From NCBI RefSeq assembly GCF_055900595.2, contig NZ_CM148325.1: DNA of 64,000 nt. One strand, given 5' to 3'. Position numbers: made by a program. Positions 18,001-21,000 of the stretch are shown in pieces (positions within the stretch are counted from its first letter, which is position 1; the number at the start of each line of letters is the position of its first letter).

Positions 18001-21000
18001 AGTCCGGCCCCAGCTCAAGCCCGGTACTGACAGTCACGCCATCAGCTGTTCCGGATACAAACTGGTTGTCATGGTTTACCAGTGTTCCGCCATTCACTGT
18101 TTCACCCGGGTGCACAACGATGTCAGCAGCCAGCACCGGGAGTGACGTGACTGCGGCAAGAGACAGTGCAACCGCCACACCGCCACGTTTACCCCGTGCG
18201 CGGGCCAGTTCGGAGGCAACCACGAAAGCGCCCGTAATGTGATTCCATACCAGCCTGTAGCAGGTATTCAGATGTCGTTTCATCAGCATTTCCTTAATCA
18301 GAGTGAGGGTGAATAAAAAAGCCGGTATCCACAGATGTGGATACCGGCAGGTAAAGGATTACAGTGCCGGAGGTCCGGCTGACGGAAGTTTCTGACGTGT
18401 GGCTCTGTTGTTCCCTGAATCTCATGTCTGTGTGTATCTGCGCACGTTGCTAACAGGAGTTATTATTAGCATGACGATCGATATAAACGATCGATAAAAT
18501 AAGTATCGATCGTTTTATTCTATTATCAGGCTATTGCACGGACAAGAGAGACAGTAACGAAAACAGCGCTTTTGTGAGCAGACTCAGAGGCAGGGAGGAC
18601 ATCATCCACAACAGGTTCAGAAGAAGATCCAGTTCCATACCGCGCGGGCAACAGAGACCACGGTGTCACGAACAGCGCGCAGGGCCGTACGGACAACAGA
18701 GGCAACACAGACGCTCTCCGCTGTGTCAAATATCCGGTCCACCGCACCGGTAAACTGCTCACGGGCCTGAGCGCGGACAGATTCCGTGCGCAGCTCGTCC
18801 TGCAGGCGGGTCATCAGGGGACTGGCGGCATGGTCGGGAAGCGCTGTCATGAGCGCACTGACCAGCGTATCCACTTCCCAGCCGGTGCGGGCCGATACGG
18901 CCACAACCGGATGTACAGGCCGGAACAGACGGAATACCGCCTCCGTTTTTTCGCGAATGTTCTGTGCCTGTGCGGGAGAGGGCTGAATGCCGGCCATATC
19001 CCATTCATGGCAGGGCTCCGTTTTGTCGGCCTGTGTCACCACAAACAGCACCTGCTGATGTCCGCACTGCAGGATGTGTCGCCAGAAATACTCATCCACA
19101 GACAGGGCCCGGTCATCGGCTTTAATCAGCCACAGCACCAGGTCCAGTTCAGGCAGAATGTCACGGTACAGGGCTTCATACTCTGCATCCCTGTCCCGGC
19201 TCTCGCCCACCCCGGGCAGGTCAGTGATAACCATGCTGTAACCGTGACCACTCAGACGGAAGCGCTGCACTTCCCGGGTGCCGGCGTGAACATCACTGAC
19301 CGGTGTGACCTCCCCCTGAAACAGGGCATTACAGAGTGAAGATTTACCGGCCCCGCTTTTACCCATAATGCCAATCACGGGCTCGTGACGGGTGAGTTTG
19401 CGCAGATGTTCCAGGATGTGACGGGAAAGCGAGTAAGGCAGGGAGGAGAGCGGTTTTTCAATTGCCTCAATGGCATCAGACGGATTCATACATGTATTCC
19501 CGGTGAAAAAAGACAAAACCCCGCACACCGGAAAGGTGGCGGGGGATCCACGGAGATAATATCTGTCTGAAATTGTTTGGAATCGATGGGGATGTTGCGT
19601 ATTAACATGAAGGAGGGCAGGAGTTATCCGTTATTGGGTGATATCCTTCCATGAAAATACGCGGTTATTGTTAAACAGCAGGCTGATTACTCCGTAAAGG
19701 AGAAAAATATTCATCTTGCAGCCTGATTATCAGGTGTGTTTATGTTTACTGAGGTGAGTATTTTTCAGTATATTGTCGGGGCAGTCAGTGGGAGATATTA
19801 AATTTACGTTTAGAGTTATCTTGCTTCTGCTGTGTATTTTTATAAGAGTGCGCACGTAATGATATCTGTTGATACCATGTTGTTAAGTGTTTCCCTTCCG
19901 GGTCATGCGTACTTGCAAAATGGCATCTGAATCGATCACGGTTTGGCCAAACCGTGATCGAATAGATAGGAATACGCACGTAATGATTAAATGCTTTTGT
20001 TACACCATTCTTCCGGCATGAATATTTATCCAGTTCCCTTTTTTATTTGTGTAGTGATACTGTCGGAATAGCGTTCAGTAATGTGAAGTGTCCTGTAAAA
20101 AAACTTTAATAAATGTGTCATCCTGGTCAGGAAATATCTGCTGAGATATTATTAGTTGGTGGTGTTTTTACTGAGTAATAGCTGGCTTTTAATTCCTGAA
20201 CTGAAATACTGTCGCTCGTCAGGGTTTAATTAAAACTGGATGATGATGTGAAAATGAAGGCTGGTTTTTGTGTTTGTCGAAGAAGTGTTATTTTAATCCA
20301 TTCTCATCATTGGCTGGCGATTATACAGAAGTATTTGAAGAAAAAATGTTGCATTTTATCTGTGTCAGCAGGGAGGAAGTATTTTATTGATGTATCAGTA
20401 TTAAATGGTTTTTGTTATTTATAAAAATGTCATCCTGTCCATAGAATATTGTACTCAGCATTCAGTGCAGGAACTGTCATTTTCTTTATTTTATTCTTCT
20501 TCAGGAGGGCAGTTTTCTGAAAGCGTTACTCCGGGGAAACTGTTTATGTTTATTCCCGGCAGGAAACCCGTACCTGCAATACCCTGGATGATGCTTTTTG
20601 CTGGTACGTTGTTGTGTGAAATTTAATCAACGTGTGTGTTCCGGAGAGCGCCCGTAGACGCACAGATTCATTCTGACACTCTTTAGCGACAAAATACCGA
20701 ATGGTTATTATTTAATCTGAAAATCGACAGAAATTTTTATCCTGTATTGATTCTGCTGCTATTTTTGCTATTAGTAGCAATAGTTGCGGTACTTTATGTT
20801 CTGTGTGTTGTGAGGTCATTATGCCATACTTTCAGTATCCTGATGAGTTTCCCCTGAGCTCGCTGCCTCCACTCATTCGTGATGCCGTTATTGAAGCTCA
20901 GCAAATCACGCAGGCTCCCCTGGGGCTTGTGGCAGCATCTGCCCTGGGCGCTGTTTCACTTGTCTGCCAGAATCTGATTGATGTCTGCAGACTGAATACA

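What the first reader, a model, noticed from the sequence alone, without database searches (positions are those of the whole stretch)
18470..18515. Intact Ag43 Dam/OxyR phase-variation switch
Three GATC sites lie within about 36 nt upstream of flu, in the arrangement described for the OxyR-binding region whose methylation state sets Ag43 ON/OFF. This island copy of agn43 is therefore likely phase variable, relevant to aggregation and biofilm behaviour.
Basis: established knowledge. Interest (0 to 1): 0.3.

Follow-up and report, generated by a model that had tools for sequence, protein, structure and literature searches.

The report
Known Ag43 Dam/OxyR phase switch
The three GATC sites are the well-known methylation-sensitive on/off switch in front of the E. 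coli adhesin gene flu (Ag43), here in a pathogenicity-island copy that matches the studied K-12 version almost base for base, so the finding is correct but ordinary.

Summary
GATC occurs at 18476-79, 18489-92 and 18508-11, a 36-nt span on the upstream side of flu/agn43. The gene is on the minus strand (CDS 18283..15164).

- The -35 and -10 hexamers are identical to K-12.
- All three GATCs are in register with K-12, spaced 19 and 13 nt.
- The 37-bp OxyR site is 34/37 identical to K-12 and 36/37 to the O104:H4 allele.
- The leader (Rfam IS102/IsrC, 250 bits), its terminator, the ribosome-binding site and a 1039-codon Ag43 ORF are all intact.

In 18 alleles the promoter/OxyR core stays 84-86% identical even where the flanks cannot be aligned. 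17 of 18 alleles keep all three GATCs.

Caveats:
- A triplet of GATCs in 36 nt is not rare by itself.
- The match to the OxyR consensus (13/20) does not exceed shuffled sequence.
- This allele carries a minority C>T change in the one OxyR element that has no GATC.
- OxyR binding, methylation and switching were not tested.

This is an already known system. In passing, flu coding sequences are almost free of GATC (0 where about 8-9 are expected) in 9 of 10 divergent alleles. I found no report of this.

The parts
18540..18545 (-). -35 hexamer TTGTCC of the flu/agn43 sigma-70 promoter
   Evidence: Promoter scan. Identical to K-12 in the alignment.
18517..18522 (-). -10 hexamer TAGAAT, 17-nt spacer from the -35
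   Evidence: Identical to K-12. Conserved in 16 of 18 alleles, including cah-type alleles whose -35 region cannot be aligned.
18508..18511 (.). GATC-I. Its G (18511 on the minus strand) is the inferred transcription start (+1).
   Evidence: The K-12 isrC ncRNA annotation starts at the homologous G. The Rfam IS102 match starts 2 nt upstream. The TSS itself is inferred, not measured.
18489..18492 (.). GATC-II (+20..+23)
   Evidence: In register with K-12. Invariant in 18 of 18 alleles.
18476..18479 (.). GATC-III (+33..+36)
   Evidence: In register with K-12. Kept in 17 of 18 alleles; strain MSB2_1A has AATC.
18477..18513 (-). Inferred 37-bp OxyR tetramer site (-2..+35): ACGATCGATACTTATTTTATCGATCGTTTATATCGAT. 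Its four 4-nt elements lie at 18513-10, 18502-18499, 18491-88 and 18480-77.
   Evidence: Best register against ATAGnTnnnAnCTAT-n7-ATAGnTnnnAnCTAT: 13/20 here, 14/20 for O104:H4 in the same register, and 14/20 as the K-12 best score. 34/37 identical to K-12. Elements 1, 3 and 4 overlap the GATCs and are near-invariant; element 2 varies. Binding is inferred from K-12 experiments in the literature.
18308..18513 (-). flu 5' leader, equal to the IsrC/IS102 small RNA (the terminated leader transcript)
   Evidence: Rfam RF00124: 250 bits against a gathering score of 46, full length 1-206. K-12 annotates isrC at the homologous place.
18313..18348 (-). Intrinsic terminator in the leader: a 12-bp stem (8 G-C pairs), a 4-nt loop and a T-run
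   Evidence: Terminator scan. Present in the MFE fold. 32 of 36 columns invariant in 18 alleles.
18291..18295 (-). Shine-Dalgarno AAGGA, 7 nt before the ATG
   Evidence: Read from the sequence. Conserved in the alignment.
15164..18283 (-). flu/agn43 CDS, 1039 codons plus stop. It contains no GATC.
   Evidence: NCBIfam NF033177 auto_Ag43: 1797 bits against a cut-off of 1200. Same start and end as K-12 flu. Annotated as agn43 in the identical locus of strain 118UI.
18617..19528 (-). yeeP-like GTPase gene immediately upstream. It marks the edge of the 333-nt intergenic region.

Best explanation
This is the regulatory region of a pathogenicity-island copy of flu/agn43, and it carries the classical Dam/OxyR epigenetic switch.

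A sigma-70 promoter (TTGTCC, 17 nt, TAGAAT) starts transcription at or next to the G of the first GATC. Reduced or oxidised OxyR binds as a tetramer to about 37 bp directly downstream of the -10 hexamer (-2..+35). That site contains all three GATCs.
- When the three GATCs are unmethylated, OxyR binds, blocks RNA polymerase and shields the GATCs from Dam. This is the OFF state, and it is heritable.
- When Dam has methylated them, OxyR cannot bind and the promoter fires. This is the ON state.
- Each replication produces hemimethylated DNA, on which Dam and OxyR compete again. That competition gives rare reversible switching.

The transcript is a 228-nt leader that either ends at an intrinsic terminator, giving the IsrC/IS102 RNA, or reads through into the 1039-codon Ag43 gene. 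The switch should therefore gate both products.

Shown here: sequence identity and register with K-12, conservation across alleles, and an intact leader and ORF. Inferred: the TSS, OxyR binding, methylation sensitivity and switching in this allele. dam and oxyR must be supplied from elsewhere in the genome.
For: Sequence and alignment:
- Three GATCs lie at 18476, 18489 and 18508.
- Alignment with K-12 MG1655 is 93% identical over about 370 nt, with identical -35 and -10 hexamers and all three GATCs in register.
- The K-12 record annotates isrC starting at the homologous G and flu 222 nt downstream.
- Rfam IS102/IsrC matches full length at 250 bits. The terminator and promoter were found by scan.
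- Ag43 equivalog at 1797 bits.

Conservation:
- Among 18 alleles, the core 18525-18475 is 84-86% identical to cah-type alleles, whose flanks are only 25-39% identical.
- OxyR elements 1, 3 and 4 are invariant or nearly so, and 17 of 18 alleles keep all three GATCs.
- The core is present in 2249 of 5426 complete E. coli genomes. The exact 55-nt version is in 38 records, so it is a transmitted allele and not a sequencing error.

Mechanism from the literature: PMC2909390, PMC4872104, PMC3764049 and PMC13337833.
Against: - The OxyR consensus score (13/20) is no better than the 95th percentile of shuffled 370-nt sequences. The site cannot be called from the motif alone.
- This allele has T instead of C at +10 (ACTTAT versus ACCTAT or ATCTAT). 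That is a consensus position of OxyR element 2, and only 38 of about 1900 flu-positive genomes share it. OxyR affinity and switching bias could therefore differ.
- No methylation, binding or expression data exist for this allele.
- dam and oxyR are not in the window.
Confidence: 0.9

Rival explanations
1. The switch is present but detuned. The C>T change at +10 in OxyR element 2, with the A>G change at +5, alters OxyR affinity. This allele would then be biased (for example mostly ON, or with changed ON-to-OFF rates) rather than behaving like K-12.
For: The change hits the C of the CTAT element, lowering the consensus score from 14 (O104:H4, same register) to 13. The variant is rare: 38 records. 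Literature summarised in PMC2909390 states that binding affinity and the number of GATCs set switching behaviour at agn43.
Against: Element 2 is the one naturally variable part of the site. It reads CTAT, CCAT, TTAT or ACAG-like sequence in different alleles, with 0 of 4 columns invariant, while the GATC-bearing elements are fixed. Variation there therefore seems to be tolerated. The A>G change at +5 is the majority state in the Rfam consensus and in many alleles.
Confidence: 0.25
2. The conserved CGATCG palindromes are maintained mainly for an RNA function, a 5'-terminal hairpin of the leader/IsrC RNA. On this reading the GATCs are a by-product and not a protein/methylation switch.
For: The Rfam IS102 consensus structure pairs the GATC-II and GATC-III segments. 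In this allele the MFE fold pairs GATC-I with GATC-II as an 8-bp 5' hairpin, and the whole leader folds with z = -4.6.
Against: Beyond the self-complementary CGATCG cores, the stems are not kept and show no compensatory changes. The K-12 10-bp II/III stem is cut to 6 bp here and in U1/ST131-type alleles. The conserved block also extends upstream of +1 into the untranscribed -10 region. Experiments in the literature show that Dam and OxyR control transcription at this site. The two readings do not exclude each other.
Confidence: 0.05
3. The three GATCs are a chance cluster in AT-rich intergenic DNA with no regulatory role.
For: Triplets of GATC within 36 nt occur four times in this window, against 1.37 expected in shuffles. 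The OxyR consensus score is not above chance.
Against: The positions are identical to the characterised K-12 site. The core is conserved as an island across alleles whose flanks have diverged beyond alignment. The 22-nt core match is unique, with 0.00 expected.
Confidence: 0.01

Closest known systems
E. coli K-12 agn43 (flu) Dam/OxyR phase-variation switch in CP4-44
   Same: Same gene family downstream and the same yeeP-like gene upstream. Identical -35 and -10 hexamers. Three GATCs at the same positions (+1, +20, +33). The OxyR register is 34/37 identical. The same IsrC leader with terminator.
   Different: Three substitutions in OxyR half-site 1: A>G at +5 and TC>CT at +9/+10. Different sequence just after GATC-III (GTCATG versus GATAAG). 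Leader of 228 versus 222 nt. The gene sits in an iha-sat-aerobactin island rather than in CP4-44. flu is 89.8% identical at nucleotide level.
agn43 allele of E. coli O104:H4 and similar strains
   Same: 99.4% identical over the 331-nt regulatory region, and 36/37 in the OxyR site.
   Different: A single C>T change at +10 (ACCTAT to ACTTAT) in the window allele.
cah (calcium-binding Ag43 homologue) regulatory region of O157:H7
   Same: Same -10 hexamer, the same three GATCs with the same spacing, and the same terminator and ribosome-binding site.
   Different: The upstream region and most of the leader cannot be aligned. Element 2 is entirely different (AAAACAGG).
Salmonella gtr (P22) and opvAB OxyR/Dam switches
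   Same: Competition between OxyR and Dam at GATCs inside OxyR half-sites gives heritable ON/OFF states (PMC2909390 and PMC4856963).
   Different: Those systems have four GATCs in two pairs and alternative activating and repressing OxyR sites upstream of the promoter. Here a single repressing site with three GATCs lies downstream of the -10 hexamer.
pap-family Lrp/Dam switch
   Same: Dam methylation pattern inherited through competition with a DNA-binding regulator.
   Different: pap uses Lrp and PapI and two GATCs 102 bp apart. Nothing of that layout is present here.

Membership tests
agn43-type Dam/OxyR phase-variation switch | Lies directly upstream of an Ag43/Cah-family autotransporter gene | tested here: met
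   NF033177 auto_Ag43 at 1797 bits against a cut-off of 1200. The ORF is 1039 codons with K-12-like ends.
agn43-type Dam/OxyR phase-variation switch | Sigma-70 promoter whose -10 hexamer sits just upstream of the first GATC, with transcription starting at that GATC | tested here: inconclusive
   The hexamers TTGTCC-17-TAGAAT were found and are identical to K-12. The TSS is only inferred, from the K-12 isrC annotation, the Rfam match start and my recollection of Wallecha et al. 2002, which is not held in the library.
agn43-type Dam/OxyR phase-variation switch | Three GATC sites spaced 19 and 13 nt apart within about 36 nt | tested here: met
agn43-type Dam/OxyR phase-variation switch | An OxyR-binding site that contains the three GATCs | tested here: inconclusive
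   By homology the site is 34/37 identical to the K-12 site, and the GATC-bearing elements are invariant. By motif it scores 13/20, equal to the 95th percentile of shuffles. Binding cannot be tested here.
agn43-type Dam/OxyR phase-variation switch | Methylation of the GATCs blocks OxyR, and bound OxyR blocks Dam, giving heritable ON and OFF lineages | not testable with these tools
   Needs methylome, footprint or reporter assays.
agn43-type Dam/OxyR phase-variation switch | dam and oxyR present in the same genome | not tested
   Neither gene is in the window. Both are core E. coli genes by established knowledge. The window is 100% identical to E. coli chromosomes.
Rfam RF00124 IS102/IsrC RNA (flu leader) | Score above the gathering threshold over the full model | tested here: met
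   250 bits against 46, model positions 1-206 of 206.
OxyR regulon operator (Toledano consensus) | Significant match to ATAGnTnnnAnCTAT-n7-ATAGnTnnnAnCTAT | tested here: inconclusive
   13/20. Sites scoring 13-14 occur throughout the window, and the shuffle 95th percentile is 13.
pap-type Lrp/Dam switch | Two GATCs about 102 bp apart within Lrp sites, plus a papI-like gene | tested here: not met
   GATC spacings are 13 and 19 nt. The next GATC is 115 nt upstream, inside the GTPase gene. The neighbouring genes are a GTPase gene and flu.

The most novel reading that the evidence does not exclude
The switch may include a feature that has not been described: a GATC desert. The flu coding sequence has 0 GATC, against about 8-9 expected from both synonymous-codon shuffles and a second-order Markov estimate. 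The same holds in 9 of 10 alleles that differ by up to 22%. Neighbouring genes of the same island have normal counts (sat 12 versus 13.4 expected; yeeR-like 17 versus 14.1).

Selection may keep GATCs out of the 3.3 kb downstream so that the three switch sites are the only local targets for Dam, SeqA and MutH. That could tune how fast Dam reaches the switch after replication. Alternatively, it could lower mismatch repair in a gene under diversifying selection.
Probability: 0.15. Interest if true: 0.5.

Novelty: already known. Interest (0 to 1): 0.12.

Why it matters
The finding confirms that this island-borne Ag43 gene is most likely expressed in only a fraction of cells. That matters for interpreting aggregation, biofilm and urinary-tract persistence phenotypes, and for any single-colony experiment with such strains. 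It adds nothing new to the mechanism. The exact sequence already sits in 38 complete RefSeq genomes, and the core is in about 41% of complete E. coli genomes.

Two small points could be followed up: the rare C>T change in OxyR element 2, and the conserved absence of GATC from the flu coding sequence.

Tried and rejected
1. GATC clustering as evidence by itself: rejected. The window has four such triplets against 1.37 expected.
2. OxyR consensus scoring as evidence by itself: rejected. The score is 13/20 against a shuffle 95th percentile of 13, and many sites in the window score equally well.
3. Primary papers with the exact footprint and mutagenesis data (Wallecha 2002, PMC135096; Kaminska 2010, PMC2838033) are not held in the library. 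The +1 position and the -16..+42 minimal region therefore rest on my recollection and on the K-12 isrC annotation.
4. A scan of one genome per species with a pattern that does not specify the GATCs returned 15 loci. Only one was a true homologue: an E. coli-like 2.3-kb contig binned in a Collinsella MAG, with GATC-III mutated to GATA. The scan therefore said nothing about spread outside E. coli.
5. A second flu switch in the window: none found.
6. tRNA island boundary: there is no tRNA in the window.
7. The RNA-hairpin reading of the palindromes: considered and given low weight, because the stems are not maintained beyond the CGATCG cores.
8. Literature search for a reported GATC-free flu gene: nothing found. 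Only a general enrichment of GATC-free regions in mobile elements is reported.

Full report
**Observation.** GATC occurs at 18476-18479, 18489-18492 and 18508-18511, a 36-nt span inside the reported 18470-18515. The adjacent long ORF is on the minus strand. The ORF lister gives 15164..18289. The start equivalent to K-12, and the one annotated in an identical genome, is the second ATG at 18283, giving MKRHLNT... and 1039 codons. The ORF scores 1797 bits against NCBIfam's Ag43/Cah equivalog, whose cut-off is 1200. The GATCs are therefore upstream of flu, 193-228 nt from the start codon.

A triplet of GATCs in 36 nt is not remarkable by itself. The window holds four such triplets against 1.37 expected in dinucleotide-preserving shuffles, and 71% of shuffles have at least one. 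The evidence lies in what the sequence is homologous to, not in the clustering.

**Anatomy.** All coordinates below are read on the minus strand.
- A sigma-70-like promoter: TTGTCC (18545-18540), a 17-nt spacer, TAGAAT (18522-18517).
- Five bases (AAAAC), then GATC-I.
- The K-12 MG1655 record annotates the small RNA isrC as starting at the homologous G, with flu 222 nt downstream. Aligned, this puts +1 at window 18511. From memory, Wallecha et al. 2002 mapped the agn43 start to the G of the upstream GATC. That paper is not held in the library, so the TSS here is inferred.
- Rfam's IS102/IsrC model matches 18513..18308 at 250 bits (gathering score 46) over its full length.
- The match ends at a strong intrinsic terminator: a 12-bp stem with 8 G-C pairs at 18348-18321, followed by a T-run.
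- Then AAGGA (18295-18291) and the ATG at 18283.

The promoter therefore produces a 228-nt leader that can end as IsrC or read through into flu.

**Comparison with K-12.** The regulatory region is 93% identical by column to MG1655 over about 370 nt. The -35 and -10 hexamers are identical. All three GATCs are in register at +1, +20 and +33.

I placed the OxyR consensus ATAGnTnnnAnCTAT-n7-ATAGnTnnnAnCTAT (quoted in PMC2909390) on the sequence. The best register is -2..+35 (18513..18477), and it is the same register in the window, O104:H4, ST131 and other alleles. In that register:
- elements 1, 3 and 4 overlap GATC-I, -II and -III;
- the window differs from K-12 at three positions (A>G at +5, TC>CT at +9/+10), none of them in a GATC;
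- it differs from the O104:H4 allele at one position (ACCTAT to ACTTAT).

The motif score does not establish an OxyR site. The window scores 13/20, O104:H4 scores 14/20 in the same register, and the K-12 best score is 14/20. The best score in shuffled 370-nt sequences averages 11.3, with a 95th percentile of 13. Sites scoring 13-14 are scattered through the window.

**Conservation.** The 96-nt core is found in 2249 of 5426 complete E. coli genomes, with up to four copies per genome. I fetched 16 alleles spread over the identity range and aligned them with the window and K-12.
- Against cah-type alleles (O157:H7 and relatives), the block from the -10 hexamer to GATC-III (18525-18475) is 84-86% identical.
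- In the same comparisons, the 75 nt upstream and the 120 nt downstream are 25-39% identical, which means they cannot be aligned.
- Elements 1 and 3 are invariant. Element 4 is invariant except in one strain.
- 17 of 18 alleles keep all three GATCs. MSB2_1A has AATC at GATC-III.
- Element 2, the only one without a GATC, has no invariant column. It reads CTAT, CCAT, TTAT, or unrelated sequence in cah.

This pattern is what a site constrained by both OxyR and Dam should show. It also places the window's C>T change in the part of the site that tolerates variation. The exact 55-nt core of the window occurs in 38 records, mostly human isolates and including an ST69 strain. It is a real allele, but a minority one.

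**Mechanism.** The mechanism is taken from the literature; nothing of it was tested here.
- OxyR binds the unmethylated site and represses transcription.
- Dam methylation of the three GATCs abolishes OxyR binding, and bound OxyR keeps Dam out.
- Replication produces hemimethylated DNA on which the two compete. Switching occurs at about 10^-3 (PMC3764049) to 10^-2-10^-3 (PMC4872104) per cell per generation.
- dam mutants are locked OFF and oxyR mutants are locked ON.

Sources: PMC2909390, PMC3764049, PMC4872104 and PMC13337833. By homology the same mechanism should work here and should gate IsrC as well as Ag43. dam and oxyR are not in the window. They are core E. coli genes, and the window is 100% identical to E. 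coli chromosomes.

**Context.** The locus is a UPEC-type island: iha, sat, iucABCD-iutA, a sialic-acid gene cluster, IS66 and IS3 elements, YfjI, the yeeP-like GTPase, agn43, a yeeR-like gene, IrmA, DUF905 and DUF932 genes, an antirestriction gene, a radC-like gene and yeeU/cbtA. 'Island copy' is correct.

**Rivals.**
- A detuned switch caused by the +10 change is possible, and only experiment can settle it.
- An RNA-hairpin explanation for the palindromes has little support. Stems beyond the self-complementary CGATCG cores are not maintained and show no compensatory changes. The conserved block also runs into the untranscribed -10 region.
- Chance is excluded by the homology.

**Verdict.** It is a textbook system in a sequence already present in public genomes, so novelty is 'already known' and interest is low.

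**In passing: a GATC desert in flu.** The flu ORF contains no GATC. The gap from 15117 to 18476 (3359 nt) is the longest in the window, and none of 300 shuffles reached it.
- Synonymous-codon shuffles expect 8.7-9.0 GATCs (sd 2.3; none of 1000 shuffles had fewer than 2).
- A second-order Markov estimate gives 8.5 (P about 2e-4).
- GATC is the most under-represented of all 256 tetramers (z = -3.9).

Ten flu/cah alleles, with a lowest pairwise identity of 78% and 896 variable columns, carry 0,0,0,0,0,2,0,0,0,0 GATCs. In the same island, sat has 12 against 13.4 expected and the yeeR-like gene has 17 against 14.1.

The library holds a general report that GATC-free stretches of 1 kb or more are enriched in mobile elements, including GI-pheV of ST131 (PMC4659465). 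I found nothing that links this to flu or to its switch. I do not know whether it insulates the switch, reduces mismatch repair, or reflects the gene's origin.

**In passing: a GATC repeat upstream of sat.** About 150 nt upstream of sat lie three tandem 11-nt units TAATTGATCGT, each carrying a GATC (58690-58722). Nissle 1917 has two units, and so, judging by match length, do most other strains.

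Noticed in passing
window 15121-18475 (flu CDS 15164-18283 plus leader): There is no GATC for 3359 nt, the longest GATC-free gap in the window. 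Expected in the flu ORF: about 9 from synonymous-codon shuffles and 8.5 from a second-order Markov estimate. GATC is the most under-represented of the 256 tetramers. The same holds in 9 of 10 flu/cah alleles down to 78% identity, whereas sat and the yeeR-like gene nearby have normal counts. I found no report linking this to the switch.
   Followed up: partly
window 58690-58722, about 150 nt upstream of sat (ORF 54649..58548, minus strand): Three tandem 11-nt units TAATTGATCGT, each with a GATC (at 58697, 58708 and 58719), followed by a T-run. Nissle 1917 has two units, as do most other strains judging by match length. Only 15 records are at least 99% identical. This may be a copy-number-variable, Dam-targeted element in the sat upstream region.
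   Followed up: partly
window 18499-18502 (element 2 of the OxyR site): The window allele reads TTAT where most alleles read CTAT (ST131-type alleles read CCAT). The exact 55-nt core with this T is found in only 38 of about 1900 flu-positive complete genomes, among them an O15:H18 ST69 strain.
   Followed up: partly
L008 / L043 (E. coli MSB2_1A, NZ_LR890410.1) and L035 (contig binned in a Collinsella MAG): Natural alleles that have lost GATC-III (GATC to AATC, and GATC to GATA) while keeping the rest of the switch and, in MSB2_1A, an intact agn43 ORF. They are possible natural two-GATC variants of the switch.
   Followed up: no
window 30407-30422 and 3162-3197: Two further triplets of GATC within 36 nt: GGATCGATCAACCGATCC at 30407-30422, and a looser one at 3162-3197. 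Their context was not examined.
   Followed up: no
window 8800-11880, 31008-33821, 43779-46211; L020 (NZ_OZ392478.1): Other GATC-free stretches of 2.4-3.1 kb in the island. In strain LP26-E1, a 6.7-kb stretch covering the GTPase gene, agn43, DUF905, DUF932 and the antirestriction gene contains no GATC except the three switch sites.
   Followed up: no
window 18485-18515: In this allele the A>G change at +5 makes the inverted repeat around GATC-I and GATC-II perfect (AAACGATCGATA / TATCGATCGTTT, 12 of 12, against 11 of 12 in K-12). The predicted leader RNA then starts with an 8-bp 5' hairpin pairing GATC-I with GATC-II, instead of the II/III hairpin of the Rfam consensus.
   Followed up: no
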